In this document: piece after piece, positions 3,519-33,512 of the stretch
Position numbering within the stretch: the stretch's first letter is position 1
Layout: the number at the start of each line of letters is the position of its first letter
Assembly (NCBI GenBank): GCA_030867685.1
Contig: JAQOWU010000005.1
Location: forward strand, 1 to 36,862
Source: Wickerhamiella versatilis
Lineage: Eukaryota
DNA: 36,862 nucleotides
Direction: 5' to 3'
Program-made: the position numbers and the translations under genes
The notes under the pieces: generated by a model
What the model was told of the DNA's origin: nothing
The model's input: the letters and a program-made list of their open reading frames with translations, nothing else
The model's database searches: none

Positions 3519-3540
3519 GTGGGCTATCTTGCATTGTTCA
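3519..3540 (+). repeat. 41-nt dispersed repeat, partial copy
   Basis: GTGGGCTATCTTGCATTGTtCA, ~100 nt upstream of the MOSC ATG. Confidence 0.8.
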
Positions 3541-3636
3541 TAATACTTAGTAACCATGTCTCTACCGCAAATCTTCCCATTTGTTATCTTAAGTTGTTAT
3601 TAAACACAACATTGCTACTTACTTTATTGTTCTGCG

Positions 3637-4563
3637 ATGCACGTATCTCGGATTTTCATACACCCTGTCAAGTCTCTTAAGGGCATCGAGGTTGAAGAAA
3701 GCGAGATAGATGATTATGGGTTCAAATACGATCGTGTATACACGCTTGCCACGGGTCCTAGGGATACCAAGGGTCCATGGGAGACGTACAACCAGAAAAA
3801 TGAGCCTCGTCTCGCTTTAGTTAACACAGCAATTGAGGATGACAATATTGTGGTTAGTTACAATGGACGTGAGCTTCGTATACCGGCTGATCCGAGTAAG
3901 GTTTCCACTGATGGGCCGACTGTGACTCTGAATATGTATGGAAACACATGTGAATGTTTCGACATTACAGATAAATACGATATCTCTTCTGTATTCAATG
4001 GAGTAATTGAGCCCAAGGTTTTACCGTCAGTTCGTCTTCTGGCACCCAAAGTGAGATTGGTTCTGGGAGAAAACCCGACCTACAAGCCGGAGAATATGCA
4101 AACTTGGGACAAGTTCGCTAAATCCGTACCTCGGAAAATGGAAACAGCATTTCACGATCTCTTTCCATGCCATTGTGTCACGAGCGCTAGCCTAGAAGCT
4201 TTGCAGCTGCATGTTAATTCAGGCCCTGACCAATCGTATGAAGTGGTTCCCCAGAATTTCCGGCCAAATATAGTTATTGAAAATGAGGATCCGTGGGAAG
4301 AGGATGACTGGGAAAGTGTAAGGATTGGTAACCACGAATGGTTCCTCGCACTCTCGGCTCCGCGTTGTCCTATCACAACTGTTGACTTAAACGAGGGTAA
4401 ATTCCGTAAGTCAAAAGAGGTTCTGAGATCATTAGGAAAGTTCAGGGTTTTAAATAAAGGAGACAGTCCGTGTTTTGGCAGATATATGGCCCATCGAGAT
4501 CCAAATACTATTGTCCACGTTGGGGACCCTGTAGAGGTTCTGTCGCTTAGGCCTGACGTCTAG
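3637..4563 (+). CDS. MOSC domain protein (MOSC_N barrel + MOSC; mARC/YcbX-like)
   Basis: N-terminal IFIHPVKSLKG and FKYDR; FHDLFP, NFRPNIVI, WEEDDW, PRCPITTVD (conserved Cys); C-terminal VHVGDPV. Confidence 0.9.
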   Translation: MHVSRIFIHPVKSLKGIEVEESEIDDYGFKYDRVYTLATGPRDTKGPWETYNQKNEPRLALVNTAIEDDNIVVSYNGRELRIPADPSKVSTDGPTVTLNMYGNTCECFDITDKYDISSVFNGVIEPKVLPSVRLLAPKVRLVLGENPTYKPENMQTWDKFAKSVPRKMETAFHDLFPCHCVTSASLEALQLHVNSGPDQSYEVVPQNFRPNIVIENEDPWEEDDWESVRIGNHEWFLALSAPRCPITTVDLNEGKFRKSKEVLRSLGKFRVLNKGDSPCFGRYMAHRDPNTIVHVGDPVEVLSLRPDV

Positions 4564-4596
4564 AAACTTTGCTTCTTTCTCCGCAAAATGCAAATA

Positions 4597-4639
4597 TGGG
4601 CTATCTCGCGTTAACCAGCCAGTATGAGGTAGTGAAGTG
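4597..4639 (+). repeat. 41-nt dispersed repeat, full diverged copy
   Basis: TGGGCTATCTcGCgTTaaCCAgCCAGTaTgAGGTAGTGAAGTG aligns ungapped to the consensus; ~35 nt after the MOSC stop. Confidence 0.8.
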
Positions 4640-4689
4640 AGTTATGTGTTATGGTTAATATCTACAGGCTGGTACTCTGAAACCAAAGT

Positions 4690-4733
4690 CCACTTTACTA
4701 CCTGAGACTGGTTGGACAATGCAAGATAGCCCA
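4690..4733 (-). repeat. 41-nt dispersed repeat, near-perfect copy
   Basis: Reverse complement TGGGCTATCTTGCATTGTCCAACCAGTCTCAGGTAGTaAAGTGG; another partial copy at 4769-4790 (+). Confidence 0.9.
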
Positions 4734-5061
4734 TACATGTAACAAGCATACTCCCACAAAAGTCATGTTATCTTGCATTTCCAATCAGTCAAACAGAGAG
4801 TAAGAGTCACTTTATTGACTTTTCCTCACTAGATAGACTACTAACTATCGATATACTGGGGCCTTCTAAAGCACCGGGCTTAGTAAGCACCAAAATCCAA
4901 ATATTATTGTGTATCACTCGGAACTGGAGCACAGAGCTGCTAATGACTTGACTTAAGAGCTTGAATGGGGCGCCAAAATAGATATTGGCTTCAAAGGTTG
5001 CCCAAATAAATGTACACAAACAAATACTCATATTATAAGACCGTGAACTCGATAATACTGT

Positions 5062-5107
5062 GTGGGCTATCTTGCATTCTTCAACCAGTCTCAGTTAGTG
5101 GAGTTGG
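5062..5107 (+). repeat. 41-nt dispersed repeat, full copy
   Basis: GTGGGCTATCTTGCATTcTtCAACCAGTCTCAGtTAGTGgAGTtGG; ~50 nt from the curA-like stop. Confidence 0.9.
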
Positions 5108-5155
5108 TCGGACTTTAGTACGGCAAGTGAAAAACAAAACAAATACATCCAATAC

Positions 5156-6175
5156 CTATTGACTTACCTTAACTACCAGCTTCCCATAATTTTCTCCTTT
5201 TAGAAGTCCGATAAATGCCTCTGGAGCATTCGATAAGCCCTCAACCACGTCTTCCAAGTACCTTACTTGACCATTGCTGACCCATTCGTTCATTTGGCCA
5301 ATAAACTCAGGATACTCATCTGAATGCTCTGAGATAATGAATCCCTGGAACAGGAGACGTTTTTTGAGTATGTCGACTAGGAATGAAGGCAGCTCATTCG
5401 GCCCAGGGACTGCCGAGGTATCGGCGTTGTACCAACTAACGAGCCCACAGACAGGAATCCTAGCAAAGTCGTTTAGATGAGGCAGAACAGCCTTGGTAAC
5501 CGCGCCACCCACGTTCTCAAAGTACACGTCGATTCCATCAGGTACCGCAGCAGCAAGCTTGGAGGCAAAGTCTGGGTCGTAATGGTCGATACAGGCATCA
5601 AATCCAAGAGTATCGACCACGTGCTGGCGCTTTTTCTCACCCCCTGCCACTCCAATAACCCGGCATCCCTTAAGCTTAGCGATCTGTCCAACAGTAGCGC
5701 CCACCGGCCCGCTGGCAGCTGCAACCACCACCGTTTCACCCTGCTTAGGCTGTCCAATCTTCAGAAGTCCGTGCCAGGCGGTGAATCCTGGCATTCCGAG
5801 CACACCCAGTGCCCATGAGGGATGCTTGAGCTCGGAAGGCAGCTTCTGGACTGCCTTGCCGTCCAGCACCGCGTGGCTGCGCCACCCTGACATGGTGAGA
5901 ACAAGGTCGCCAGAAGACAAGCCATCATACTCAGACTGCACTACTTCAGCAACATTGGATCCCGCAATAACATCTCCGAGCTCTAGGCCCTTCACGTATG
6001 ACTTACCAGCAGCCATCATACCCCGCATATACGGATCCAGTGACATCCACAGTGTCTTAACCAGGACTTGCCCCGAACCAATGGGTCCCAGTTCATTCTT
6101 CTCTAGGCGAAAATCATCAGGCTTCGGCTCGCCTACTGGCCGAGAAACCAGGACAAATTGCTCACTAACTGTCAT
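5156..6175 (-). CDS. curA: NADPH-dependent alkenal/curcumin reductase (MDR superfamily, PTGR/CurA-YncB family), bacterial type
   Basis: Long near-identical stretches to E. coli CurA/YncB as recalled: SLDPYMRG, PSWALGVLGMPGFTA, AAASGPVGATVGQIAKLKGCRV, GIDVYFENVGG, ARIPVCGLVS, FIGLLKGENYGK. Start placed at ATG 6175 (MTVSEQFVL). Confidence 0.9.
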   Translation of the reverse strand: MTVSEQFVLVSRPVGEPKPDDFRLEKNELGPIGSGQVLVKTLWMSLDPYMRGMMAAGKSYVKGLELGDVIAGSNVAEVVQSEYDGLSSGDLVLTMSGWRSHAVLDGKAVQKLPSELKHPSWALGVLGMPGFTAWHGLLKIGQPKQGETVVVAAASGPVGATVGQIAKLKGCRVIGVAGGEKKRQHVVDTLGFDACIDHYDPDFASKLAAAVPDGIDVYFENVGGAVTKAVLPHLNDFARIPVCGLVSWYNADTSAVPGPNELPSFLVDILKKRLLFQGFIISEHSDEYPEFIGQMNEWVSNGQVRYLEDVVEGLSNAPEAFIGLLKGENYGKLVVKVSQ

Positions 6176-6210
6176 GGTCGAACTGATCATTAATACAAGC
6201 CCTCTTATGG

Positions 6211-6236
6211 AGTGGACTACCTTGCATTGTCTAACC
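6211..6236 (+). repeat. 41-nt dispersed repeat, partial copy
   Basis: AGTGGaCTAcCTTGCATTGTCtAACC, 35 nt upstream of the curA-like ATG. Confidence 0.65.
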
Positions 6237-6916
6237 CTACCCTGGAGTGTTTGCCACTGCACGTACTTAGAAGCGGTTGTACTTTACATGGGGCAGGTAA
6301 CGTGGACTTGTTGGCCCCAGTACCAAGTCCAGTAGACAAGTAATGATCGCAAATATCCTTTTAAAAAGTTATGCTACCATATAGTCTAATTCAATGCGAA
6401 AAGTAGGTGCAGCAGTCTCAACGCTCTGCATGATTGGTAATATTATCAATCATGCATATTACCAATCATGCAGAATGGCAATACCTCTACGTTTACCTTG
6501 GATATTGCTAACCCATCCTTCACTTTCTGAGCATTGCTTGACGATATTAGGTCTTGAGGAAAACCGGCAAGTGAGAAAATGCTCGAGGCAAATCAAAACC
6601 CAATAATTGCTTCGGAGAGTGAAGTGTACTATCTCCCAGTTGCCTAAATCACTTAGCCAGGATTACCCTACGCCACCAGGATTAACAAAGTTACGCTTAG
6701 TCCGCCGTACCTTGCGTGAGACCTCGCGGAACAGTTATTTCTTCCTCGACAAGTGTGGAACAGACCAAGTTCTAAAGTGGACAAAAACTTCGACAGTGTT
6801 ATTGGGCTCTCAGATGACTATTTGCTGAGCTGATCAGTATTTGCGACGAACATATAGTTCAAGGGGTTCGCTGCACCATACTTCTATGGAACTTGCTTTA
6901 GGTGGATGGGGAATGC

Positions 6917-6989
6917 GGAAAATGCAAGATAGCCCACTATAATACGTTTTGCATTGACCAACCAGTCTCAGGTAGTGAAGTGGGCCATC
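6917..6989. repeat. Two divergent copies of the 41-nt repeat (6917-6938 minus; 6949-6989 plus, one full circularly permuted unit)
   Basis: Reverse complement AGTGGGCTATCTTGCATTtTCC, then TTGCATTGaCCAACCAGTCTCAGGTAGTGAAGTGGGCcATC (exactly 41 nt). Confidence 0.9.
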
Positions 6990-7052
6990 ATCACATCATT
7001 TGTAATACCTCTGTCATTTTAAATCCCCTCGTATCCAACATATCGGCCATAG

Positions 7053-7943
7053 ATGACCCTCCGACATCAACTAATTTTCCTTGAGTGTCAGAATCATGAA
7101 ATCAGGGTGATTTCTCCCGGTTCCAAGGATAGCCAGCTACTGCTCAATACCGGTAAGAAGTATCCAGATGGAATTTGTCTAGATAGTCGAGCAGGTCATA
7201 TATATTGGACGAATATGGGAGAGGATGCTTCTGGTGCTGATTTTTTCTCAAATGATGGTACCATCGAGCAGTGTAATTTGGATGGAACACATTCTAACAC
7301 TATTGTAGCAGCAGGACACGTGGTCACGCCAAAACAGATAGTGAATGATGAATCGGGGTGGTTGTACTTTTGTGACAGGGAAGGTATGCGAGTTATGCGA
7401 GTTAGATACGATGGATCAGATCTTGAGACTCTAGTGAAGCGCGGCAACTGGCCTGACGATATGGAGGATAAAGATCGCCATTGTGTGGGCATCACTCTCG
7501 ACAAATCGCGCAACAACATTATTTGGACCCAGAAGGGATTCCCCAAGGCGGGCCATGGAAGAATATTTCGCGCTCCGGTTGATATTGTCCCCGGCGAGAA
7601 TCCCGCTGGGCGAAGTGATATTGAACTTTTGGCGGGGGGGCTCCCAGAGCCGATTGACTTGTACTACAGTGAAATGTCCGGAAAACTCTTCTGGACAGAT
7701 CGTGGCCAGCCTCCGTCCGGAAATACCCTCAATGTGGCGGACGTTACCGATGAAGGTCTAGCAAACCACCGCATCATATGTGTTGGTTTGGAGGATGGTA
7801 TCGGGCTTGCAGTAGATGAGAAAAATGACGCTTGTTACGTCACTGATGTTGGAGGTTTTCTGAGAAAGGTGGAGTTGTCAACAGGAAAATCGGAAATTTT
7901 ATATAAATCGGGTATGTTAACAGGAATTGAAATTGTCCCGTGA
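7053..7943 (+). CDS. YWTD/LDL-receptor-class-B-like beta-propeller protein (family associated with 3-hydroxyacyl-CoA dehydrogenase)
   Basis: Blade motifs PDGI..D...GHIYWTNMG, NDGTIEQCNLDG, TPKQI, LYFCDREGMRVMR, CVGITLD, WTQKG, LPEPIDL, LFWTDRG.PP.GNTLN, GIGLAVD. Confidence 0.85.
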   Translation: MTLRHQLIFLECQNHEIRVISPGSKDSQLLLNTGKKYPDGICLDSRAGHIYWTNMGEDASGADFFSNDGTIEQCNLDGTHSNTIVAAGHVVTPKQIVNDESGWLYFCDREGMRVMRVRYDGSDLETLVKRGNWPDDMEDKDRHCVGITLDKSRNNIIWTQKGFPKAGHGRIFRAPVDIVPGENPAGRSDIELLAGGLPEPIDLYYSEMSGKLFWTDRGQPPSGNTLNVADVTDEGLANHRIICVGLEDGIGLAVDEKNDACYVTDVGGFLRKVELSTGKSEILYKSGMLTGIEIVP

Positions 7944-8304
7944 TTGATTGCCAAAGTGCAACATCATTAGCGATCAGAAAGCTCAAGTTGAAAACTACAA
8001 GTTCTTCTCGTCTCAAGAGGAGTTTAAGAATGAGTAACAATGCGTGATAAGTTATTATGTAGATAGTCGGATACATTTTGCACTGAGATTTCGATTAGAA
8101 ACAGGTTGGATAGTATTTGGCTAGCATATTCTACGGCACAACTGTGATGAACAAAACAGGTTAAAGTTAGAAAGACAAGAATACTCATTTCTGTTATGTT
8201 TCAACTATATACAGTGACATTACTGAAGATAACATAGCTAGCACATGAAAATTCAGTCTACAACAAGTATCTGGCATATGGTGTTGGTATTTTGGCACCC
8301 ACAT

Positions 8305-9393
8305 CTACAACTGGCTCAAAATTGGATCCTTACCCTTTTCAAGGACTATCTTCACCAGTTCCTTGTCACGAGCTCTTTGCAGAGCCACCTGACTAGAATC
8401 TATCTTTGCCATCTCCCTTTTAATACCACCAGCCGCGGCATTGATGAGCTCTGGTGTGATCTTATCGATGTGCCCTAGATCTGCCCACCAGCTTTCTATC
8501 GGCCTACCCAAATGTTCAAGAAGGTGGCGGATACCACCCTCTCCGCCGCCGAGGTTGAAAGTCATAAACTGTCCCATCAAAGCCCAGCGCAAGCCTGGCC
8601 CGTTGGAAACCGCCTTGTCAATATCCGCCAGGCTGGCCACGTCCTCAGTTAGCAAGTAAAACACCTCCCGAAGCACAGCAGCCTGGATGCGGTTAGCAAT
8701 ATGTCCCGTTATCTCTTTGTTGAGACGCACCGGTTTTTTCCCCAAAGCCTGATAGAAGTTGATGGCTTTCTGTACATTGGCTTCGTCAGTAAGTTTGCCA
8801 GCACACACCTCCACTAACGGAATCAAGTGGGGAGGATTAAATGGATGCCCTAGCAGAACTCGGCCAGGCAGACGCAAGGTTCGCTGATAGTCGGAGATAT
8901 GGAGCCCTGATGAGGAACTGGCAATTATAACATCATCTTTGATATGTTTCTCCAGAAGCTGGAGCAGGGATTGCTTGATAGCGAGATTCTCTGGCCCATT
9001 CGCCTGGATGAAATCAACCTCATGGAAGGCATCATTAACTTCGGTTGTGAAAGTCAGAAGATTAAGATCTACCACAAGGTCAATGTCATTGTCGGAATAA
9101 GCCGCGCGAGCATTTTCAAAAAATGCAATCAAGCGCATCTCAGCAGTAGGATCGGGATCCATAGCGACAACTTTCAGCCCTTTAGAGATGTAAAAGAATG
9201 CCCAGCTCATCCCAATAACACCGCATCCTACTACTCCGACCTTGGAGATATCTTCCACCGAGCCAATGCGGGTACACGGCTGGCTCTTGGCTTTATAGCT
9301 CGAATACGCACGTGCCAACGATGGAATGCTAGAGCGAGAAGCGACTGTCACACGACTGGACCGAAGTAGTACCTTAGACAACAACATTGACAT
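8305..9393 (-). CDS. 3-hydroxyacyl-CoA dehydrogenase family (L-carnitine dehydrogenase/lambda-crystallin-like) with N-terminal presequence
   Basis: GVVGCGVIGMSWA Rossmann motif, GPENLAIK, IIASSSSG, GHPFNPPHLIPLVEV, GHIANRIQAA, GPGLRWALMG. The N-terminal ~40 aa are Arg/Ser-rich and lack acidic residues. Confidence 0.9.
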   Translation of the reverse strand: MSMLLSKVLLRSSRVTVASRSSIPSLARAYSSYKAKSQPCTRIGSVEDISKVGVVGCGVIGMSWAFFYISKGLKVVAMDPDPTAEMRLIAFFENARAAYSDNDIDLVVDLNLLTFTTEVNDAFHEVDFIQANGPENLAIKQSLLQLLEKHIKDDVIIASSSSGLHISDYQRTLRLPGRVLLGHPFNPPHLIPLVEVCAGKLTDEANVQKAINFYQALGKKPVRLNKEITGHIANRIQAAVLREVFYLLTEDVASLADIDKAVSNGPGLRWALMGQFMTFNLGGGEGGIRHLLEHLGRPIESWWADLGHIDKITPELINAAAGGIKREMAKIDSSQVALQRARDKELVKIVLEKGKDPILSQL

Positions 9394-9755
9394 ACAAGGT
9401 TAGAAGGTCTATCGACGAGGAGGGTAAGGGGAGCTATAACCCGGTAAAACACTCCAATCACGTGACTACACGTTGCTTTTGACTAAATCAAGTCAACTAT
9501 GTCTACTGTAAAGTTGGTGTTTGTAGTTAGATATATATATTTACGTATGTATATAAATAATTGTTGGAAGTATCCATAATATCTACAGAGCGTACTTGCA
9601 TAATCAAATGTGTTCGCTGATCAGCAGAGCTATTCTAAGGAGCTACCAAATCAGTTATCCGTAATGAGCTCTCATACCCAGGCTCCTGAGTTCGATGCTG
9701 GAAATTCGGCACAACTTAAGACTATATTCCAACAAGTTCTGGCCACTTCTGACTT

Positions 9756-10019
9756 ACCACGAGTTTCTGATAATAGAATGCTCGCCACTTTGAATTCGAA
9801 AAAATAATCAGTCGCCCAGATTGCTTTACTCATAATAGGGTATTCAGTACCCAATATTTAAATTTATTCGTTATCATGTCTCTAATTAGTACACAGTGAG
9901 AAACTGATTAGCTACTGCTGGTATAGAAGCAAGGTACCTGACCCATATTTATAACGTCAAATTACCATTCTTAAGATTGATTCTAAAACGGTATGTCATT
10001 AAGCTACATAGATAAGCTA
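9756..10019 (-). pseudogene. Duplicated 3' fragment of the membrane-protein gene at 31867-32870
   Basis: 264-nt ungapped direct repeat of 31749-32012 (~28 mismatches by hand count, ~89%). Translation in the homologous frame has two premature TAA codons. Confidence 0.75.
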
Positions 10020-10530
10020 CGGAAACAATTCGTACAAAAATCGAGCAAGAATTTAGTAAAACGAACCGAAATAGGGTCGGCGATATGGTATAATTTGAGT
10101 CTTATAGTGGAAAATAAAAATGCACCTTATCACTATGACGATTCAATATATATGCATACAAAAAGCCAGACATGGAATAAAATTCATTTATTGCTCTGAT
10201 AGTTTGCCACAGTGGGCTATCTTGCATCAAGTAAAGCAAAACGTAATGATCGATCATCTTGCTTAATCCATGCGCAAATGCTTGTAACTACAATTGATAA
10301 GCTCTCACGCATTGCTCAAATCCTTCCAGACAAAGAAATGAGCTGTGGTATAAATGAATAACTAAGAGACAAATTGCCCGTTGATTAATCATAAACCTAA
10401 GATGTGGTAATCTTGCATATATTGCATATCCCGTGCAAAACTAAAAGGTACGCAGCTGGCCTCTGACTGGGAGTTATCTAAACTTGTACACTTAATTAAT
10501 ATACCTATTTACTCCCAGGAAATCTCACAC

Positions 10531-10565
10531 TGTTCAACCAGTCTCAGGTAGTGAAGTGGGCTATC
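10531..10565 (+). repeat. 41-nt dispersed repeat, permuted copy spanning the unit junction
   Basis: TGTtCAACCAGTCTCAGGTAGTGAA|GTGGGCTATC; another partial copy AGTGGGCTATCTTGCAT at 10211-10227. Confidence 0.88.
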
Positions 10566-10713
10566 CAACATCATTAACTTGGTCATATGCAGTAATGTTG
10601 CATATACACTGCCTCGTTACACCTTAAAAAAGTTGGTTGGACAGTCTTTCATATTACTCACCCTATTCTTGTATTGTGCCTGTCGAAATTTCTTTGTGCA
10701 ATGGATCCAGTAG

Positions 10714-11340
10714 ACTTTCACTGTCAAGGAATGGTTTAAATCACATGACCCCGGTACTTTCACCTATAGATACCGCGACGACGACCTGGAAGATGCTCTT
10801 GAACTTGCTGTGGATTACAAACGTATCGACCAGGAGATTGTTGAGCAAATAATCACTCAGCTTGGTAATGATGCTGATGATTGGTGGTATGTTGTGGACG
10901 ACTTTTCTGACATACGTGTATGTAACCTAAATAATGACACTGAGGAAGCATGTGTATTTATTCGGACCCTTGTGAAAAATGCGATGGAAAAACTGAAGCT
11001 CTACTCGAATCTACCATTATTGAAACCGTGTAATGCCTCCTCCTACAAGGCCATGGTTGAATCCTTGGCCGAGCGTGCTCCTTTGGTGGACGAGCGAATG
11101 AGGGACGTTAGCCACGGAAAGCTCCCCGATATCTTCACCCTCTTTGAATTTTCTTCTCAACTAGAAGATATAGGAAAGATTACCCGACATCGTACTAACT
11201 TTGACTGGGGATACCTTTGTGGGGAATCGCTCGATCATTATTACCTTACTCATGCACTTCATCGTAGTGGAAATTTTCTCAAACCAGGTGCCCCACGTAG
11301 GAAATCTGTTGATCTCTGTGTCTGGTGGTGGGAAGATTGA
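10714..11340 (+). CDS. Hypothetical protein, probably frameshifted at the 5' end
   Basis: Frame open from 10714 (TFTVKEWFKSHDPG...LELAVDYKRID...) to 11340 with protein-like composition. The nearest upstream ATG (10701) is one base out of frame. Confidence 0.5.
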   Translation, partial: TFTVKEWFKSHDPGTFTYRYRDDDLEDALELAVDYKRIDQEIVEQIITQLGNDADDWWYVVDDFSDIRVCNLNNDTEEACVFIRTLVKNAMEKLKLYSNLPLLKPCNASSYKAMVESLAERAPLVDERMRDVSHGKLPDIFTLFEFSSQLEDIGKITRHRTNFDWGYLCGESLDHYYLTHALHRSGNFLKPGAPRRKSVDLCVWWWED

Positions 11341-11794
11341 TAGTACTGGTGGTGGTCAATTAAGAACTCAGCAACTCCTGTTATCGTTCAATATGAAAAT
11401 TGACGGTTACCAACCACTCCACAATCGAGCTCTGTACCAAATACTAGAGCCAAAAATCTTAGGTTTATCATGTAGTGCCAAGAACCCTGTAGTGTGGTTA
11501 TTGTGAATTGTTATAATTTCATAATCGGGTTACAATCTTGTAACCTACCCAATGTCTTCTCATGACTTGCTATTGCCAATGCTGCGACACTGGTAAAGCA
11601 AGATTGATTTATCTGCTTTTCACCGATTCATCCTGAGACTAGTTAGTATCTTGGTGCCTGGGATAGTGTGTGTTCTTGGATACATAGTGCAACCTAAACG
11701 ATACCTGAGAAGTACGTGATTCAATGTTGCCGAACCTTCGCAATTAGCCAACTTGGCAGGTTTCGGCTGGCGCTCGGTCTAGAATCAGCGAGGC

Positions 11795-13693
11795 CTAAGA
11801 CTTTACTTTTTTAAACCATAAGTAAACTGGATCCGTCCTATAAGGTTGTACACCTTTCGTTACAATTTTGTCCATTTCATCCAGAGAGTAGCCATGGGTC
11901 TCTGGGACAAAGAAGAAGGTGAAAATTGCAGCCAGCATTCCAAATACCGCGTAGATTACGTATGTTTTCCATTGAATATTTATAAAGCCAGCAGGACATG
12001 ACACAGTGATGATGAAGTTAAACAACCAGTTAGTGGCTGAACCCAGGCCATTGCCAATCCCACGTTGACTGGGAGGAAATATTTCGGAAAGATAGACCCA
12101 ACCTACTCCCCCCCAGGTAATGGCAAAAACAGCTAGGTATATTATCGAAAATGCCAATGTAGCTTTTCCAGCAGACTTCTTTGTGATCTGCTGGCGAATT
12201 GTCGGGTCGCAGGTATAGTCGTCCCCTTCACCAGTACATAACCCTTCCTTTCCCAGAATCTGCCCATACTTACCGGTTAAGCCTGCTATTATACACATGC
12301 ATGTGCACATACCCAATGCGCCGCCTATAAACACCCACCGTCGTGACCAGCGGTCGACCCAAAACGTGGTAGGCAGGGTCATACCAAAATTAACTGCAAA
12401 CCAGATCGTGGTGAAACGAAATACGTCAATATCTGAAAATCCAGACATACGAACTATGGGGCCAGCGTAATACATAACTATGTTTGTTCCCACAAGTTGG
12501 GAGTTTGCCTGAATGCTTAATGAGGCAATAGTCCTTCTGAAGCTGTGACCCTTAAATAGATCGCTGAAACTTGTTTGCTTTTCTGTTTCTTCCTTAATAG
12601 CCTTCCTATATTCTTCAAGTTCGGTCCTTACCTCCTGAGATTGGGCATCATTTTTTCTTAAAAATGTGAGCACCTCCACACATTTCGACCAGTCGCCCAT
12701 GTTAGCCAGCCATCGAGGGCTTTCGGTTAGAAATAAAGAGCCAGTTAGCCATATGGCGCCAGGAATCATCATAAGGCCCCATGCAAGCTCAACCCCGGCA
12801 CGTGCTCCATTTGCAGTAATGTGAGAGCATCCCCATGCAATTTCATACATTACCAAGATACCTAGAGTATTTGACAACTGAAACATGACTGCCAGTCGTC
12901 CTCGAATGTTTGGTGGGCTTAACTCTTGAAGATACATGGGGACATTGGAGGACGCGAACCCAACGCTAACACCCATAATAATACGACCAATTGACAAAGC
13001 CGTCCTTGCCCCCGTCTCCGAGTGTGGGATTGCAGCTGAGCAGACTTGTATTACCACGCCTATCATCCAGCTAATGCCACCAAGACATATCATATTCTTT
13101 CGACCTAGTGCATCAGAATACATACTGGAGATAATAGATCCAACAAAAGCACCACCTGGATAGGCTGCTGAAACACCACCCTGCTGGATACCAGGAATAT
13201 CGCCATAGATATTATTATAGCCGAGGTTACCGATGAAAGGTGTCATATTACTGCTTGCAGTACCAAAAAGTAGCGCGCCCATTGTAGAGATTACTGCAAT
13301 AATATAAGGATTTCGGAACTTGATTTTTGGCTCGATTTTTCCAAACGGAACTAGGTCGTAAAGTGGACTATAACTTCTAACTCTAGGTAACGTCTTGCTG
13401 GACAGATTTGCTTTCTCCAGCTCAGGAGTGATTATATTATTTCCTGACTGCGTTTCCTCTGAGTTAGGCGTTGACGAAGTACTCGCATCTGTATTACTGG
13501 AATTTGGGAGATATCCACCACTCTTTTCGTTTCGCATTATTTTGAGCGCTAGCTCTTCGTTTATTGCCTCCATCTGGTGAATTTCGTCTCGAATACCTTG
13601 GACGTCCATTTCCATTTGCTGCATTTTCGTATCATACACAGTCCATCTGCTTTGTGGGCTATTAGAAGAACCTGAAGCTTCCAAAGCGCTCAT
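11795..13693 (-). CDS. Sugar porter family MFS transporter (high-affinity glucose transporter Hgt1-like) with long N-terminal extension
   Basis: SDALGRK, GRIIMGVSVG, YLQELSPPNIRG, ESPRWL, QLVGTNIVMYY, VDRWSRR, WVYLSEIFP, FVPETHGYSLDEM. Confidence 0.92.
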   Translation of the reverse strand: MSALEASGSSNSPQSRWTVYDTKMQQMEMDVQGIRDEIHQMEAINEELALKIMRNEKSGGYLPNSSNTDASTSSTPNSEETQSGNNIITPELEKANLSSKTLPRVRSYSPLYDLVPFGKIEPKIKFRNPYIIAVISTMGALLFGTASSNMTPFIGNLGYNNIYGDIPGIQQGGVSAAYPGGAFVGSIISSMYSDALGRKNMICLGGISWMIGVVIQVCSAAIPHSETGARTALSIGRIIMGVSVGFASSNVPMYLQELSPPNIRGRLAVMFQLSNTLGILVMYEIAWGCSHITANGARAGVELAWGLMMIPGAIWLTGSLFLTESPRWLANMGDWSKCVEVLTFLRKNDAQSQEVRTELEEYRKAIKEETEKQTSFSDLFKGHSFRRTIASLSIQANSQLVGTNIVMYYAGPIVRMSGFSDIDVFRFTTIWFAVNFGMTLPTTFWVDRWSRRWVFIGGALGMCTCMCIIAGLTGKYGQILGKEGLCTGEGDDYTCDPTIRQQITKKSAGKATLAFSIIYLAVFAITWGGVGWVYLSEIFPPSQRGIGNGLGSATNWLFNFIITVSCPAGFINIQWKTYVIYAVFGMLAAIFTFFFVPETHGYSLDEMDKIVTKGVQPYRTDPVYLWFKKVKS

Positions 13694-14169
13694 CTAAACA
13701 CAAAAAAATAAAGTGGTAAGCAAGCTGTGTTCCTTATGTTATTAATGTTCAAACTCACTGTTGGCCAGGGCAAAGACCTATTGCTAGCGGACGAGCGGTT
13801 AACATTATAGTCCAGACTCCGAACCCCGGAACAAGTAGTCTGCTAGCTATTGAAGTTTATTCGTCCTACTCTCAAAGCCTCGCTAGATAAGGGAGGGTCT
13901 GTTTTCGTATTCATTCCCTCAACAGAAAACGGTTTGTCATGGTCATTAATTAGAGACATGGGCCGGGCATTCAGGTTAAAAACTATAGCTACTCTGGTTT
14001 TGAACCCAATCCAACAAAATTCTAGTATTTTTCTTTAATTTGTACCCATTAATATATTTCCAACCTCTCTTAACTGTCTATTGAGATCTTTCAACAATAG
14101 CTCATATACATTCTCGGGAATGTCGTATAGCTAGGTCTAGGGTGTTTTTATCATCCAAGGCAATCAAGT

Positions 14170-14181
14170 GTGGGGCTCCAC
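14170..14181. promoter_or_regulatory. Inverted pair of Mig1/CreA-type SYGGRG boxes upstream of the sugar transporter
   Basis: GTGGGG (14170-14175) abutting CTCCAC (reverse complement GTGGAG), ~480 nt upstream of ATG 13693. Confidence 0.35.
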
Positions 14182-14721
14182 ATTATCGAATGGCCATCGG
14201 TAAGCCGATTGTCACTCTATTAGCATTAATCCGATATATTTTATTCATTACATAGCCAAGAATGGGATCCTCTATTAATAGAACTGCCCACCACTGGAAA
14301 CGTAGTGCAAACTGAGGTATTCCCTATCGCAGAGCATACAAGGCAAGATAGCCCCACTTACCTAAGATCCACTATATAGTAATTTTTTGGAAGCTGTTAT
14401 ACGTGAAATAGTTGTCGCAGAGGTGAAAATACCAGATTGGTGATTTTTTAGTGGATGATAATGGCTCGACCAATACTACTATAATGACATTCATTCTAGA
14501 TAGAAAGATAAACAATGAAATCCATTAATTAATTATTCAGAAACATCGATCTATATTATGTGCATCATATTATCTGGCAAAGTGTAGGGCAGCTCTCTAA
14601 ATGTTGAGGGTGCACAGGATTTTCATTGACAGGCGAGTATATCACTATTAAACATGCACCTCTTTCATATTCAATTTAATCTTCACTAAATGTAAATTAT
14701 CCTTCAAGTATTATAGTTATG

Positions 14722-15198: not shown

Positions 15199-15370
15199 TT
15201 AAATGCTTTAGTAATCTGATTGTTTGCTTGTATATAGAATAGATTTTGCAGGCAGAAGTACACCTATATAAAGTAAATCGGAGATGGTCTGGTGTTTATA
15301 CGTTTGAGACCATCGATAAATCTTGACAATGTACGATAAGCTTCAAGTATTAGGGCCGTATCAAATCAGT

Positions 15371-16227: not shown

Positions 16228-16940
16228 TAGTGCCATTATCGTGTATAGAAGTCCATTTCTAGTTCGAACTAAATACACCGGGCACATATTGCCACCTGCT
16301 GTTTACATTGTTGAGCGACATATAAAGGGTAGCCCACATATCCAAGTGATAGAAAACTGATACATAACAGCATTCTACATGCGATTAACCCTATAACTTG
16401 AGTGGGCTATCTTGCATCTTGCGCTTTGCATTTTGTATCTCATTATACACTGCGGCTGGCAACGAACGAAGTTATCTCGCATACCGTATGCAAGACCAGG
16501 GCAGGGGTAGTGAAGGTCCGAACAGTTAATTTGTCGGCAAGAAAGTAGCCCATGCCGCAAAGGATTGTCCAAAATTGTCCAAAATACCAGTAGTGAAATG
16601 GCTATCGAAGATTATTGCTCCCTAAGCTATGCAGGAAACACAATGGCGGCACCTAAATAAGGTATCTCGATAAGAGGTTCGTTTCTGTGGATATGGCACT
16701 GAAGGCCATGAATAATGTCCCCTAAACAGTGATCAGAGGTATCATCAAGAGCAATTATGAGACTGCCATTGTTTGGATAGAATATGTCCAATGAGAGTAG
16801 TCCTGAGCTTCACTGTTTCAGCATATCTGAAGTGGCCCAGGAAGCTAAATATACTCCAATACTATGAACGAGATGCCCAACTGATTAAGTTCAATCTCAG
16901 GGTCATACCTGTTTGTTTAATGCAGCTAGTCCAATCTGCA

Positions 16941-16972
16941 ACCTGAAACTGGTGGGACAATTCAAGATAGCC
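16941..16972 (-). repeat. 41-nt dispersed repeat, partial copy
   Basis: Reverse complement GGCTATCTTGaATTGTCCcACCAGTtTCAGGT. Further partial copies at 14343-14359 (-), 16401-16417 (+), 16574-16606 (+) and 17790-17799 (+). Confidence 0.75.
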
Positions 16973-18332
16973 TCCCAAATTGGTTGCACTCCCCAGCACT
17001 AGCCCTGGCCTGTATATATGTCTGCAAACATACATTATGACATTTCTACCAAGAGCTGCTAGTTATTGTGCTTTTCGTGGTCGTGTTCAATGCCACTGAT
17101 AACAGGGAGGCTTCCAATTATGGTAACAAGCGTCTGTCGCTGTAACTTCTGTCGTTTGGGAGCATCTAGAATATTGACCGCATCTCGCCTAATATTGTCT
17201 TTTCTTGTACTGCCTAAACAATTCCACAAAAAGGATGGCCATGGCCATGCATGTTTGTGTAATTGTATCGTGTTACTAATTTATTATCACAAACAAACAT
17301 TCAGTTGATATTAATCTGTCGGATCACGTCGCGTAAGTTATCTATAGGCAGACTTGTTAAGTTTCGTGGACGACTAGTTCACTAAAGAGTATAGCTTGGC
17401 ATCGGAAGCATTTGGCTTCTGAAAATTTTTAGTGGAGCACCACGGTACCGTTGAACCGGGGGGTGAGATGTGGGGGTGTCATGCCTGCATAGTGGCCACC
17501 CTCCACCGCAGGTATCCTCTGGTAGCCCGATACATAATTGATAAAAGTATGTGCCTCAGCGCAATTAACCCATTCTGATTACAACTTATGAATTATTTAC
17601 TGCTGTTACTATAGCAGGAGCATGGAAGGAGTAGCGAGCGGTTATGATGATGCTGTGATTGGTACATCCTCCATTTAACTTCCGATTCGTTTGAAAATCT
17701 TCTGTTTCACATGATTTCGCATTATAACTAGTCTAAGGTATGAGCATGAATGGGCGTAAGTTATCTCGCGGTTGGTTTAGGGTGATGATGTGGGCTATCA
17801 TCAAAAACTCATAGATACCAAGTTGCTAATCATTTACCTCATACTCGTACTCAAGAATTGATCGACTATCTCTTACGAATCTTGTTTATTCGAACCAAAG
17901 GCTTTGACCACTCTTTCAGACGAAGTTGGATAACCACGTCCTGCACCGACTTCTATTCTTATCTCTAATGCCGTAATACGTATCCAGGTAAGAACAATAT
18001 AAAAATACTCCACTCACACTAGTCGAGTTTTTAGTGTGCACCCGAAATACTGGGGCCCCGGGGCCCCGGTAATAATAGCCCGTGCCCTGGTTGTGTTTCT
18101 GGCCTCAGTTCCACTTAAAATCAGTTGTTCTAACCGCTCATCGGGATGTCTGGGAGTAAGGTTTTTAGAATTTAGTTCAGTTAACAATGGGGTGCATTAT
18201 AATACAAACCATACCAAGGCATCTGAACTAAGGAGATAACACTATGTATCGTTAGGTAATGGACGATCAGTTAAGTATACAAGAAGCACACACCCTGCAG
18301 AGCATTATTAGCTATCTCAATTCAGCTTCATT

Positions 18333-19299: not shown

Positions 19300-19489
19300 T
19301 GTCCAATCCAACCAAGCCAGTCTCAGATAGTGATGACGTAGTTATAGCCTATAGTGTGTGACCTTATCAGGTCGTGAAGTGGGCTGGCTATCTTGCATGA
19401 TGTGGGGTAAACGTAGCAGCGCCTTGCAACATACGCCACGGTTGTGATCAACGAAGTGGGCTATTGCATTGTCCAACCACTCACAGGTA
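19300..19489 (+). repeat. Three clustered copies of the 41-nt repeat with internal stutters (19300-19333, 19367-19398, 19453-19489)
   Basis: TGTCCAA-tccaaccaag-CCAGTCTCAGaTAGTGA; TCAGGTcGTGAAGTGGGCT-GGCT-ATCTTGCAT; GAAGTGGGCTA--TTGCATTGTCCAACCAcTCaCAGGTA. Confidence 0.85.
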
Positions 19490-19618
19490 ATATTCAGTCT
19501 TATATCTCTTCTATTTAATAGGTGCTACTATACATTACGGTAGAGCCACTATAAACTAGCCTTCACCTGTGACCTCGTCATAAGAAGGAGGTAAGTCTGC
19601 TATTGGCAGCTCTTCTCG

Positions 19619-19975: not shown

Positions 19976-20282
19976 CGCTGGGTGATGTTTGTTAGAAATC
20001 TATCAATCGAAGTTGAATAACAAAGATGTCGGTTCCTTGAATATCTTGACATGGGTCAAATCCTATCAAGATTCGCTTATTTGCCCTAATACCGTGAGTA
20101 TACGCAGGTAGTACAAGTATGACTGTGATATCAAGCACCTTTTTATTACAAATATACTAGGACGAATCTTTAACATTTATTGCTAATTTAAGATACACAG
20201 TACAAAGATACGAGTCAACTTACTCATGATGATCTATATTCAACTATAAATGAAGTAGCAAAAAGGTTACTTTTTTACTTAC

Positions 20283-20309
20283 CTTGCATTTTCCAACCAG
20301 CCTTAGGTA
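20283..20309 (+). repeat. 41-nt dispersed repeat, partial copy
   Basis: CTTGCATTtTCCAACCAGcCTtAGGTA, ~45 nt before ATG 20354. Confidence 0.7.
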
Positions 20310-30059: not shown

Positions 30060-30096
30060 TGGGCTATCTTGCATTGTCCAATCAGTCTCAGATAGT
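30060..30096 (+). repeat. 41-nt dispersed repeat, near-full copy
   Basis: TGGGCTATCTTGCATTGTCCAAtCAGTCTCAGaTAGT, 20 nt before ATG 30117. Confidence 0.9.
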
Positions 30097-30116
30097 AAGA
30101 TGATTAGTCATCTGTT

Positions 30117-31637
30117 ATGCTTTGGGTGAGCATGGCTCTAACTGCGTTAGGGCTCGCTCAAAAAGGTTCCATTGAAGATGTTCCTGGGTATTGGGAAACA
30201 TGTAGTACTGTACATTCGCGAAATGACTGGTATGGTTATCCGCAGGTCAATATTGATGTGTCTATTAACAGTAATGAACAGGAATTCGTATTTGTCAATT
30301 CCTTTCCCGTAAAAAATTCCCATGATGGCTTTATGCTATGGCAGTTTACTGTTGTTTTATATGCGTATGAAGACAAGGATCTGCTTGGTATTTCTGCTCC
30401 TGATAGTCGTGCGGAGTACGTCTGCACAAACCATACGATCAAATCCGGAGCATGCACTATTGATGACTATGGAAACATTTTATTAGAGAAAGATGCACGC
30501 TCTAAACTTCCTATTCGCTATAAAAGTGTAAATTTTGATTTGCCTGCAAGCATCAATGATCATCGTTATATCACCTTTGATATTTCGAACACGTCACTTT
30601 ACTGTGTGGGAATATTTCCCGTCCAATATTGTACACACTGGGATTCCGCAAAGTGTATTCACATAAATTCGGTGCAGGAAGAAGATTCGCCTAGTTATGT
30701 TGTTAGAAAATTGGATGCAGATGTGAGTTTTTTCAGCTCTGATGGATACTTAACCGCATCTAAAGGACTCTTAGTATTACATTTTGTTGCTGCAAGTATT
30801 TGCCTGCTTTCTGTTGCCCTTTGGTCATGGAATTCCTATCTTAACCGACATAATTTAGTGAAAATTCAGCATCAAGTTCTTATCATTGGAATCCTTATGA
30901 CCTGTGAACAGCTCATCACTGCATTTCACTACTTATCGGTAAGTATGAGAAGAGAGTTTCCAGTATTTCTTTGGTTTGTAGCTGTATTTCATGCCATTCG
31001 TATTGTTTATATGCAGTTTTTTCTGTTACTCTTGTGTGTAGGGAACTCTGTTGTATGGGAAACATGGAGTTGGACTTCACTATTCTATTGGATACCATTA
31101 GGCGCTGGGACCTTCTTCACTTTGTTTGTATACTCCCTGCAAGCATATAACTATCGCCATGATGGTATGGACGATAAACACTTTAACGTGATAGTAATTT
31201 CTGTGCTTAACGGATTGCTACTAATTAATTTTGCCTGGGTGATTTCACGCTTGTCGGCTGCAAAAAAATATTTCTTGGAAAAAAACCAGATTCTCAAAAG
31301 CAGTGTATACGAGAAAATTCGAAACTGTACCGGCGTTTATGCCCTTGTGATTGTTGCCTTTACAATCCAACTTTTGGTCTATAAGCTTTCCAGCAGATAC
31401 AGTGGCTTTTTAATTGATTACTGTAATTATAGCTGGTTTTTTTTAGATGGATTTCCACTAGCGGCATATTTATTCCTCTACTTGGTTGTCTCCTACCAGT
31501 TGCGCCCTTCTGCTTATGAACAGTTACCCCAAGATGAAGACTGGCTGAACAATGCCGGAGCAATAGAAATGGAAACGTTCCTAGTGCCTGAGTTCGATAA
31601 TTTTGGTAGGATCCGAGGGGCATCACCGAAACCTTAA
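30117..31637 (+). CDS. PTM1-like / GOST (Lung_7-TM_R) seven-transmembrane protein
   Basis: Signal peptide; lumenal domain with YEDKDLLG, YVC....IKSGAC...DYG and LYCV; GYL.A; IQH; FLLLLCVGNSVV; WFFLDGFP...Y...LRPS. Confidence 0.82.
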   Translation: MLWVSMALTALGLAQKGSIEDVPGYWETCSTVHSRNDWYGYPQVNIDVSINSNEQEFVFVNSFPVKNSHDGFMLWQFTVVLYAYEDKDLLGISAPDSRAEYVCTNHTIKSGACTIDDYGNILLEKDARSKLPIRYKSVNFDLPASINDHRYITFDISNTSLYCVGIFPVQYCTHWDSAKCIHINSVQEEDSPSYVVRKLDADVSFFSSDGYLTASKGLLVLHFVAASICLLSVALWSWNSYLNRHNLVKIQHQVLIIGILMTCEQLITAFHYLSVSMRREFPVFLWFVAVFHAIRIVYMQFFLLLLCVGNSVVWETWSWTSLFYWIPLGAGTFFTLFVYSLQAYNYRHDGMDDKHFNVIVISVLNGLLLINFAWVISRLSAAKKYFLEKNQILKSSVYEKIRNCTGVYALVIVAFTIQLLVYKLSSRYSGFLIDYCNYSWFFLDGFPLAAYLFLYLVVSYQLRPSAYEQLPQDEDWLNNAGAIEMETFLVPEFDNFGRIRGASPKP

Positions 31638-31866
31638 ATTATAATGTTAGTATTGCACGAACGGGTGGCTATCTCTACTTTAACCTTTTCCCTCTTCCCA
31701 TGTTCTGAAAATTCCCCGATCTTGTTCTACTAGGCTATTTTGTGTCCGACCACGAGTCTCTGATAATAGAATGCTCGCCACTTTGAATTCGAAAAAATAG
31801 TCAGTCGCCCAGATTGCTCCACTCATAATAGGGTATCCAATACCCAATATATAAATTTATTCGCTA

Positions 31867-32870
31867 TTATGTCTTTAATAAGTAGACAGTGAGAAATTGA
31901 TTAGCTATTGCTGGTATAGAAGTGACGTATCTCACCCGTATTTTTAATATCAAATTACCATTCGTAAGATTGATTCTAAAGCGGTATATCGTTAAGCTAC
32001 AAAGATAAGCTAAGAGGTTTGATAAAAATCCAAGCACACAGTAGCTAAATTCCAAAAAATAGATCCCATGCCCAATATATTGAATTCAGCTTTACGAACC
32101 TGGAGAGCAGAACACAAGCAAGCCAACGCATTTACGAAAAGGATTACCGCAATAAGAATCCGATAAGGCCGTCTGAGACTAAAAATCCCGACTAACATCG
32201 GAAATGCCAACCTTGCGCTTATCAATAAAGACAGCGTAATTATCTGTAATGGACGAAGTACATTCAAAAACCTAATAATTCCATTAAAAGCCTCAAGCTG
32301 TACAGATAAACCAATTTGCATATCAAGCTTGAATGACATGGAAGGAATTAAAAAAACGAAACTCATCGACAGACCAAGAATTACCAGCAATAAAAGCCCA
32401 GGGGAGCTTATCCACTTGACAACCAAGTTTTTACCACACATGACTATACCAATAAGAAACGCAAAAATTATCGGGAGCATCCCAAAAGATCCTATAACAC
32501 ATGGAAAAGCCAAAAGATCCGACGTGGGGTTCTTTGAAACAAAATCCTTTAGGTCTTCGCTTCCATGGATCCCTCTGTTTAGGTACGCCTTCTGGTACAA
32601 GTATGCCAACATTAGAATGAACGAGTTGCATACCCATATACCCGCCGCTCGATGCATAGGGAAATAATTACATGGATGGTACATATGAAATACCAAAAGT
32701 GGTGAGACTGACTCAAGTATTATGAGCCACTTGAACCTCATTGCTGTGTTTGCAGCTTCAGGTATGACTGCAGAACTGAGTCCAGCAAGAATAAGGAAAA
32801 GTAATTCGATATAATCTGTCTTTGTTGCCGTCAAGTAAACCTCTTCTACCCCATCAGTGCTCCTACCCAT
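31867..32870 (-). pseudogene. Multi-pass membrane protein, apparently frameshifted (ORF 32010-32870 plus ORF 31867-32055)
   Basis: Hydrophobic 286-aa ORF overlaps a 62-aa hydrophobic ORF at an A6 run (32054-32059); removing one base fuses them. The 31867 frame and its double stop are conserved in the paralogous fragment at 9756-10019. Confidence 0.55.
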
Positions 32871-33049
32871 TGCCTTTGGATGGTCTCAGTACTCCTATGA
32901 TAAATCCAGTTCAATTAGTCATCATCGGATAGATCTTGCTTGTTAAAACATAACGGTGACATATTTAAGCTCTAGGACCTGAATAGACTGTGGGCCATTT
33001 AGGTACCAAATATTTAAGTAACCTGTTTCTGAGCCACTTTATATTAGCC

Positions 33050-33091
33050 AGTGAAGTGACTTGCATTGTCCAACCAGTCTCAGGTAGAGAA
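33050..33091 (+). repeat. 41-nt dispersed repeat with internal deletion
   Basis: AGTGAAGTG[del]aCTTGCATTGTCCAACCAGTCTCAGGTAGaGAA; partial AAGTGGcCTATCTT at 33177-33190. Confidence 0.88.
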
Positions 33092-33512
33092 ACTGCCGAA
33101 AGTCATCGCAGGAAGCTTAGGAAAGCCACCGAACGTGACGGGACCGAAGGTCATGGTTCAACTGATTATTTCTCCTAAGTGGCCTATCTTTTTTTGTTGA
33201 TACCTTCTTATATATTTGCAGTTCCAATTGATTTTACAACCATCATATACATCTTGAATGAAAAAATGACTTTACCTCATTCACACCCCTCGTAATCAAA
33301 ATTTCTTGTGAATTCAAAATCAGCTAAAAATCTACATCTACTCATTTTAAATTCATTAACAATACATATCTTGCAAATAAATATTCTGGCGGCATATGCA
33401 CTCACTCTTTCTGAGCCAGCAGCCTGGTTTCTGCATGAGCAGCCTAATCGTCCAATTATGACGTAGTTTAGCGTATGGTCAGATTATTCATATTACTCAT
33501 CAACACATACCA

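What the first reader, a model, noticed from the sequence alone, without database searches (positions are those of the whole stretch)
3519..33190. Circularly permuted 41-nt unit scattered ~20 times between genes: candidate unusually long telomerase-type repeat left as interstitial scars
Seen: consensus GTGGGCTATCTTGCATTGTCCAACCAGTCTCAGGTAGTGAA at 3519, 4597, 4690(-), 4769, 5062, 6211, 6917(-), 6949, 10211, 10531, 14343(-), 16401, 16574, 16941(-), 17790, 19300, 19367, 19453, 20283, 30060, 33050 and 33177. All copies lie outside the accepted CDSs and most are on the + strand. Copies start and stop at different phases, and several read through the end-to-start junction (...GTAGTGAA|GTGGGCTATC at 6949-6989, 10531-10565, 19367-19398). 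The parent is therefore a head-to-tail tandem unit, not a fixed-end element; no TIR or TSD was found. Known: budding-yeast telomeric units can be long and complex (23 nt in Candida albicans, 25 nt in Kluyveromyces lactis), and telomerase can leave interstitial tracts at healed breaks. Inference: these are fragments of a 41-nt telomeric or satellite repeat, far longer than those examples, which would imply a very long telomerase template.
Basis: partly seen in the sequence, partly recalled or inferred. Interest (0 to 1): 0.88.

Follow-up and report, generated by a model that had tools for sequence, protein, structure and literature searches.

The report
Short scattered repeat in yeast DNA
A budding-yeast chromosome segment carries about 25 whole or partial copies of a roughly 50-base sequence between its genes; this dispersed repeat family is real and unusual for a yeast, but nothing found here ties it to telomeres.

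Summary
All 22 listed places carry a local match to the 41-nt unit. 20 of the 22 score 24 or more in a wrap-around alignment, against about 0.17 such hits per strand in shuffles. I found 3 further hits. 21 of 23 lie outside the long ORFs and 17 of 23 are on the + strand.

Only one copy is a near-complete unit, and no array exists: TRF finds none and the longest copy is 64 nt (1.56 units).

Copies are not random pieces of an array. 13 of 23 start within a few bases of GTGGGC. Several end just after the next GTGGGCTATC. This suggests a ~51-nt element made of a 41-nt core plus a 10-nt terminal direct repeat. One inverted pair forms a 141-bp foldback flanked by TA.

Contigs of other runs show many further copies with unlike flanks, and strain differences at copies.

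My best reading (0.4) is a lineage-specific short mobile or repeat element. Fragments captured from a tandem repeat (0.2) and telomerase scars (0.07) are not excluded, because no genome was available to inspect chromosome ends. A 41-nt telomere unit would not be unprecedented: a putative 43-nt motif is in print.

The parts
3519..3540 (+). head half (phases 0-21); a weaker AACCAtGTCTC follows after 14 nt
   Evidence: score 39
4597..4645 (+). full-length decayed copy (phases 1-49); left arm of the 141-bp foldback; TA before it
   Evidence: score 53; I3; fold z -7.3
4687..4733 (-). best copy (phases 1-47); right arm of the foldback; TA beyond its head
   Evidence: (score 84)
4769..4790 (+). copy lacking the head (phases 6-28, decayed further on)
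   Evidence: score 34
5062..5107 (+). full-length copy (phases 0-45)
   Evidence: score 67
6208..6236 (+). decayed head half, upstream of the first ATG of the ADH-like ORF
   Evidence: score 38
6618..6634 (+). junction-only piece (phases 35-51); not in the finding
   Evidence: score 24
6917..6938 (-). head half, head-to-head with the next copy
   Evidence: score 39
6949..6989 (+). copy without head that runs through the junction (phases 10-50)
   Evidence: score 72
10211..10227 (+). head half ending at phase 15; complementary to 10532-10565 (phases 16-50), 304 nt away
   Evidence: score 34
10522..10565 (+). tail half running through the junction to GTGGGCTATC
   Evidence: score 68
14338..14359 (-). 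head half with a piece of tail before it
   Evidence: score 32
16401..16417 (+). head half ending at phase 15
   Evidence: score 34
16574..16606 (+). copy with internal deletion and a 10-nt duplication, through the junction (phases 14-50)
   Evidence: score 26; (period 10 at 16564-16585)
16909..16972 (-). longest copy, 64 nt = 1.56 units; second unit decayed
   Evidence: score 53
17786..17799 (+). weak head piece
   Evidence: score 23 (borderline)
19312..19333 (+). tail half
   Evidence: score 32
19367..19398 (+). junction piece plus head, with a 4-nt duplication
   Evidence: score 33; D10
19453..19489 (+). nearly whole unit (phases 38-35)
   Evidence: score 54
20280..20309 (+). middle part (phases 6-35), 45 nt before an ORF
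   Evidence: score 40
30060..30099 (+). full-length copy, TA before it, 18 nt before the PTM1-like ORF
   Evidence: score 65; I2
33050..33091 (+). tail piece, a 7-nt gap, then phases 9-40
   Evidence: scores 18 and 59
33177..33190 (+). weak junction piece
   Evidence: score 23 (borderline)
36220..36256 (-). decayed copy; not in the finding
   Evidence: score 27

Best explanation
The copies belong to a lineage-specific family of very short interspersed elements in the nuclear genome of a budding yeast. The full form is about 51 nt. It is a 41-nt core that begins (A)GTGGGCTATCTTGCAT ('head') and continues CCAACCAGTCTCAGGTAGTGAA ('tail'), followed by a second GTGGGCTATC.

This 10-nt terminal direct repeat, together with a few dimers, makes copies look circularly permuted.

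Inferred mechanism: the element is non-coding and is copied or moved in trans. The head would act as the recognised end, much as the end of a cut-and-paste transposon does. Insertions survive only between genes. Copies are later truncated, split by insertions, or paired in inverted orientation.

Shown here: the family, its anatomy, its dispersal and its link to strain differences. Inferred: the way it spreads.
For: Excess over chance and exclusion from ORFs.

Fixed-looking ends:
- 13 of 23 starts fall in phases 35..3, and 9 of 23 ends in phases 3..10 of the next unit.
- Full-length forms run 0/1 to 45-50 (4597, 4687-, 5062, 30060).
- The halves 10211-10227 and 10532-10565 fit exactly at phases 15|16.

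The head is the most abundant and best-kept part. Its 7-mers occur 13-17 times in non-coding DNA, against 6-11 for the tail. TGGGCTATCTTGCAT is exact in 8 copies.

Ages are mixed, from 100% to about 77% identity.

One two-armed foldback lies at 4595-4735, flanked by TA on both sides, with DNA fold -31.9 kcal/mol and z -7.3. The copy at 30060 is also preceded by TA.

Dispersal elsewhere in the genome:
- Summed contig depth in bin 4402-5035 is 1178 (X1) and 971 (X16), against about 25-50 in most other bins.
- 13-14 contigs per run stop at 4733 with unlike continuations (agreement 0.45-0.46).
- 70 of 153 (X1) and 96 of 230 (X16) laid contigs fit only in part.
- 5 of the 15 joints shown join copies on opposite strands.

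Strain differences at copies:
- In X16 a 22-nt head piece stands where the window has 798 bp (10090-10887).
- A copy abuts 20201, where X16's cover resumes after a gap from 12010.
- Segment 4737-4879 is duplicated in X16 and X13.

Neighbouring copies keep no 41-nt register: mean offset 8.4 against about 10 expected, over 7 pairs. The clusters are therefore not decayed arrays.
Against: Only 1 of 23 copies has a partner arm.

No consistent target-site duplication is seen. TA precedes only 3 heads at TGGGC, plus 6917- and the X16 filler in another register. The others have CA, GA, TC, GT or AT.

No transposase or other mobile-element domain occurs in any ORF of the window.

51 nt is shorter than any MITE known to me (recalled).

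Copies without a head that run into the next head (6949, 10522, 16574) need a dimer or a tandem template.

The bias to the + strand is unexplained: 17 of 23 (p 0.035), or 21 of 26 with borderline copies, while only 15 of 26 are in sense to the nearest gene.

The phase windows were chosen after seeing the data.

The high depth could also come from a hidden array or a multicopy replicon.
Confidence: 0.4

Rival explanations
1. The copies are pieces of a 41-nt tandem repeat that lies elsewhere in the genome, for example a satellite or rDNA-spacer or other array. These pieces were captured as filler when chromosome breaks were repaired, or were copied by template switching from nearby copies.
For: 9 of 23 copies cross the unit boundary with the same precise junction.

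Other loci do the same. Loose ends behind 10565 run on as TTGCATT in 4 contigs each of X1 and X13. 'Goes back 34/45' joints occur in X1 and X16.

Copies are short (14-64 nt) and lack consistent TIR or TSD.

In X16 a 22-nt piece sits exactly at the junction of a 798-bp difference, with GGT shared between the left flank and the unit.

The high summed depth could include an array.
Against: No array is seen. TRF finds none and the maximum is 1.56 units.

Head-to-tail contigs have single-copy depth: 74.5 over 3 contigs in X1, and 75.9 and 53.2 over 2 contigs each in X16 (only 15 of 56 joints were shown).

Starts are not uniform over the unit. The strand bias is not expected from capture at breaks.
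Confidence: 0.2
2. One reading: the unit is the telomeric repeat of this yeast. A telomerase of low processivity patched internal breaks and left less than about 1.5 rounds of template copy at each.
For: Starts cluster at one phase, sometimes after 2-6 nt that match the unit's end (AG, AAG, GAAG, GTGAAG). Priming at the start of a template would give this pattern. Lengths rarely exceed one unit.

A single-gene tree puts the organism beside Wickerhamiella and Starmerella (99/98, unrooted). Putative telomere motifs in those genera are long and odd, 11-30 nt. A putative 43-nt motif exists in Pichia norvegensis.

Telomerase-made interstitial inserts are described for mammals (PMC2246262; abstract seen only).
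Against: No array, and no sign of one at high depth.

The motif matches none in the telomere table searched.

About 25 copies in 15 kb of non-coding DNA is far denser than any interstitial telomeric insert known to me (recalled).

Copies that start at phases 6-29, inverted pairs and the strand bias are not predicted.

A canonical GGGTTAGGGTTGG stands at 2382-2394. This hints at a TTAGGG-type binding protein, though weakly.
Confidence: 0.07
3. The head and the tail are binding sites of sequence-specific proteins, possibly taken over from an old repeat. Selection keeps them between genes in varying arrangement.
For: The 15-nt head is exact in 8 copies while the flanks are unrelated.

Head and tail occur together, apart (14, 76 or 304 nt between them) and inverted.

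Several copies lie 18-117 nt before an ORF on the same strand: 3519, 6949, 20280 and 30060.
Against: Blocks of 15-28 exact nt are much longer than usual binding sites.

Distance to genes is not constant, and 11 of 26 copies are antisense to the nearest gene. 8 of 26 lie beside 3' ends.

The order of parts is always that of the unit.

Copies sit at strain differences.
Confidence: 0.1

Closest known systems
MITEs of yeasts and other fungi (mRover1 of Lachancea, PMC4316626; pogo-like Fotyl of Yarrowia, PMC5014426)
   Same: Short, non-coding, dispersed between genes, and linked to rearrangements. One copy pair forms a foldback flanked by TA, as Tc1/pogo-type MITEs do.
   Different: Most copies are single arms of 14-64 nt without a partner. 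No consistent target duplication is seen and no parent element was found. mRover1 has 5 copies, whereas here there are about 25 in 37 kb (passages seen).
Interstitial telomeric sequences inserted at repaired breaks (PMC2246262)
   Same: Short head-to-tail pieces of a repeat unit at internal sites, sometimes with a few shared bases at the edge.
   Different: Here no terminal array is known. The unit is 41 nt, most pieces are less than one unit, the density is very high and there is a strand bias. Only the abstract was seen.
Long telomeric motifs of budding yeasts (PMC7857110: up to a putative 43 nt in Pichia norvegensis; Wickerhamiella domercqiae 30 nt)
   Same: Length and lack of G-richness are within the published range.
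   Different: No sequence match to any listed motif. Terminal position was not shown.
5'-truncated Ylli LINE fragments of Yarrowia (PMC5014426: 104 fragments of 30 bp to 1 kb)
   Same: Many very short truncated copies with one common end and no clear target duplication, in a related yeast lineage.
   Different: No poly(A) or poly(T) lies beside either end. Truncation occurs at both ends. No reverse transcriptase is present in the window.

Membership tests
Telomeric repeat / interstitial telomeric sequence | Tandem arrays of the unit cap the chromosome ends | not testable with these tools
   No genome is held for the window. Scans of public contig sets found only chance 18-mer hits.
Telomeric repeat / interstitial telomeric sequence | Interstitial tracts are head-to-tail runs of the unit | tested here: not met
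   No period-41 array. The longest copy is 1.56 units and 22 of 23 are 49 nt or less. The boundary is crossed in 9 of 23.
Telomeric repeat / interstitial telomeric sequence | The unit matches the template of the telomerase RNA or the motif of relatives | tested here: not met
   Four sub-motifs of the unit are absent from the telomere table of PMC7857110. The telomerase RNA itself is not available.
MITE (Tc1/pogo or other cut-and-paste type) | Terminal inverted repeats at both ends of each copy | tested here: not met
   Met only at 4595-4735 (I3). The other copies are single arms.
MITE (Tc1/pogo or other cut-and-paste type) | Target-site duplication of fixed length (TA for Tc1/pogo) | tested here: inconclusive
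   TA flanks the foldback on both sides and precedes 30060. Other heads follow CA, GA, TC, GT or AT. No empty site could be compared.
MITE (Tc1/pogo or other cut-and-paste type) | An autonomous partner with the same ends | not testable with these tools
   No transposase domain in the window's ORFs. The rest of the genome was not available.
Satellite / minisatellite | Arrays of two or more units in tandem | tested here: not met
   Neighbouring copies keep no 41-nt register (7 pairs). Arrays outside the window are not excluded.
Solo LTR | 100 bp or more, TG...CA ends, 4-6 bp target duplication | tested here: not met
   Similarity among copies ends within about 51 nt. No such ends are seen.
LINE/SINE retrocopy | Common 3' end with an A-rich tail; internal pol III boxes for SINEs | tested here: not met
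   No A or T run beside either end. No tRNA, 5S or other RNA-family match. Pol III boxes were not tested.

The most novel reading that the evidence does not exclude
The 41-nt unit is the telomerase-templated repeat of a long-branched yeast lineage near Wickerhamiella and Starmerella. Its poorly processive telomerase has repeatedly patched internal breaks. It starts at the first template position and usually falls off within one round. The result would be hundreds of partial units between genes, a record of break repair by telomerase on a scale not seen in any organism.
Probability: 0.07. Interest if true: 0.9.

Novelty: new variant of a known kind. Interest (0 to 1): 0.45.

Why it matters
Budding yeasts are poor in repeats, and the first yeast MITEs were reported only in 2014, with five copies (PMC4316626). 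This family has about 25 copies of a ~51-nt element in 37 kb and, by depth, perhaps hundreds per genome. Such an element would be an unusual genome component for this group.

It sits at differences between strains, so it may drive or mark rearrangements. Its odd anatomy (fixed start, terminal direct repeat, strand bias, almost no paired arms) fits no standard class. The way it spreads is therefore worth finding out.

It also breaks short-read assemblies of this food-fermentation yeast at every long copy.

Tried and rejected
RNA evidence. The one RNA run (X20) gave 6 contigs, all in coding parts (2698-2994, 5308-5873, 7345-7765). It says nothing about the repeats.

Public contig sets. A 25-mer gave 0 hits in metagenome contigs and a 28-mer gave 0 in viral contigs. 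An 18-mer gave 6 + 4 hits in metagenome and prokaryote contigs. None extends beyond the 18-mer or aligns to the window, so these are chance hits.

Own genome and earlier findings were not available.

RNA families. No tRNA was found. There was no Rfam hit at gathering score. At permissive E-values only generic hairpin (miRNA-type) matches appeared at the foldback and at a palindrome, and nothing appeared at 10470-10640. A recalled likeness of GTAGTGAAGTGGG to part of 5S rRNA got no support from these scans.

5'-UTR intron idea. At 20283 the copy ends in ...AG|GTATTC with TACTAAT and CAG downstream. Other copies lack such signals and RNA data are missing, so I dropped it.

Decayed local arrays. 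Neighbouring copies keep no 41-nt register.

Secondary structure of the unit. None: z is 0.0 and 0.7.

Literature. The motif strings occur in no paper of the library. Searches for dispersed repeats in Dipodascaceae and yeast MITEs found nothing like it.

Sense bias to neighbouring genes. Absent, 15 of 26.


Full report
**What the window is.** The ORFs carry fungal domains: a Zn2Cys6 factor, sugar and MFS transporters, a PTM1-like protein and argininosuccinate lyase. There are no tRNA genes and no Rfam match. The lyase is at most 69% identical to any named yeast protein (Wickerhamiella, Geotrichum, Sugiyamaella, Starmerella, Yarrowia). In a single-gene tree it forms a long-branched trio with two unnamed relatives. 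That trio lies in a set with Wickerhamiella sorbophila and Starmerella bacillaris (99/98, unrooted). Twelve DNA runs from food-fermentation and sediment metagenomes hold 0.78 or more of the sampled words of 3000-12000. The sequence is therefore not an assembly oddity. No whole genome is held.

**The observation.** The full 41-mer, with up to 3 mismatches, occurs once (4694-4734, - strand). Partial copies are many:
- 19 blastn-short hits of 22 bits or more, against 0.87 in shuffles.
- 23 wrap-around alignment hits scoring 24 or more, against about 0.17 per strand in shuffles.

20 reach that score, while 17790 and 33177 score 23. Three hits are new: 6618, 36220- and 31538- (the last lies inside an ORF and may be chance). 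Borderline pieces lie at 13353 and 29645.

21 of 23 hits lie outside the long ORFs (p 7e-7). The copy at 6208-6236 is upstream of the first ATG of its ORF. 17 of 23 are on the + strand (p 0.035). With borderline copies the count is 21 of 26, yet only 15 of 26 are in sense to the nearest gene. The bias is therefore to the chromosome strand, not to genes.

**Anatomy.** TRF finds no array of period 41. The longest copy is 64 nt, or 1.56 units (16909-16972, -), and all others are 49 nt or less.

Copies do cross the unit boundary. 9 of 23 have 5 nt or more on both sides, always with the same junction GTGAA|GTGGGC.

The ends are not random:
- 13 of 23 starts fall within phases 35..3.
- 9 of 23 ends fall within phases 3..10 of the next unit (these windows were chosen after seeing the data).
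- Full-length copies run from GTGGGC, or TA+TGGGC, to about phase 45-50 (4597, 4687-, 5062, 30060).
- Three headless copies end exactly at GTGGGC(T/C)ATC (6949, 10522, 16574).
- 10211-10227 (to phase 15) and 10532-10565 (from phase 16) are two halves of one such element, split by 304 nt.

The simplest full form is thus about 51 nt: a 41-nt core plus a 10-nt terminal direct repeat.

The head TGGGCTATCTTGCAT is about twice as frequent as the rest and is exact in 8 copies. Identity among copies ranges from 100% to about 77%. The unit has no secondary structure. Neighbouring copies keep no 41-nt register, so the clusters are not decayed arrays.

One inverted pair (4595-4639 and 4691-4735, 82% complementary) forms a 141-bp foldback flanked by TA on both sides.

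**Elsewhere in the genome (contigs only).**
- Summed depth rises to 1178 (X1) and 971 (X16) in the bin with the best copies, against about 25-50 in most other bins. It also rises to 443 and 231, and to 192 and 137, in the bins with 10522-10565 and 6949-6989.
- If the excess lies on about 47 nt, it corresponds to a few hundred copy-equivalents. This is an inference, and it cannot separate dispersed copies from a hidden array or a multicopy replicon.
- Contigs of X1 and X16 end at the long copies.
- 13-14 contigs per run stop at 4733 and continue with unlike sequence (agreement 0.45-0.46). 70 of 153 (X1) and 96 of 230 (X16) laid contigs fit only in part. Dispersal is therefore shown.
- A few contigs hold two units head to tail, at single-copy depth. 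5 of the 15 joints shown link copies on opposite strands. Only 15 of 56 joints and 18 of 211 loose ends were shown.

**Strain differences.**
- X16 has a 22-nt head piece where the window has 798 bp (10090-10887), though a second X16 contig resembles the window there.
- A copy abuts 20201 where X16's cover resumes after a gap from 12010.
- X16 and X13 duplicate 4737-4879.

**Telomere question.** A putative 43-nt motif in Pichia norvegensis is in print (PMC7857110, passage seen). The supplementary table of the same paper lists:
- 7-11 nt TTAGGG-like motifs in Dipodascaceae.
- 11-30 nt motifs in Wickerhamiella.
- A 20-nt motif in Starmerella bombicola.

None contains parts of this unit. A 41-nt telomere unit would therefore be long but not unheard of. 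It has no positive support here: there is no array, the density is extreme, inverted pairs occur and there is a strand bias. It is not refuted, because chromosome ends could not be seen.

**Verdict.** This is a real, abundant and unusual short repeat family. It is most likely a lineage-specific mobile or repeat element with fixed ends (0.4). Array fragments captured at breaks (0.2), a protein-binding motif (0.1) and telomerase scars (0.07) remain open. The rest is unknown.

Noticed in passing
window 9747-10019 and 31740-32012: A second repeat family of about 270 bp, two direct copies 88% identical. Contigs of X1 and X16 break at its start (9777-9795), so it is multicopy in the genome. Ends and class were not determined.
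   Followed up: partly
window 2382-2394: GGGTTAGGGTTGG, two canonical TTAGGG units, lies about 85 nt upstream of the SDR gene's ATG (2476). It is a possible Tbf1/Tay1-type site.
   Followed up: no
window 365-389 and 967-1006: Long G runs (GGGGGAGGGGGG and GAGGG repeats) in a 2.4-kb stretch without long ORFs at the window's start.
   Followed up: no
window 6425-6474: A perfect 19-nt inverted repeat with a 12-nt loop. It gives only generic hairpin (miRNA-type) Rfam matches well below threshold.
   Followed up: partly
window 14678-15222 and 15319-15855: Tandem pair of YbjQ-family genes, 73% identical at DNA level. A contig of X1 and X13 joins a repeat copy to 14801, which suggests a third paralogue elsewhere.
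   Followed up: no
window 12010-20200: The diverged run X16 has almost no contig cover here (sugar transporter, both YbjQ genes, hydrolase). This is a possible 8-kb presence/absence difference, or divergence above 15%.
   Followed up: no
window 10228-10531: A 304-nt single-copy stretch that splits one repeat unit exactly between phases 15 and 16, without a duplication. It holds two more ATCTTGC(A/T)T motifs.
   Followed up: partly
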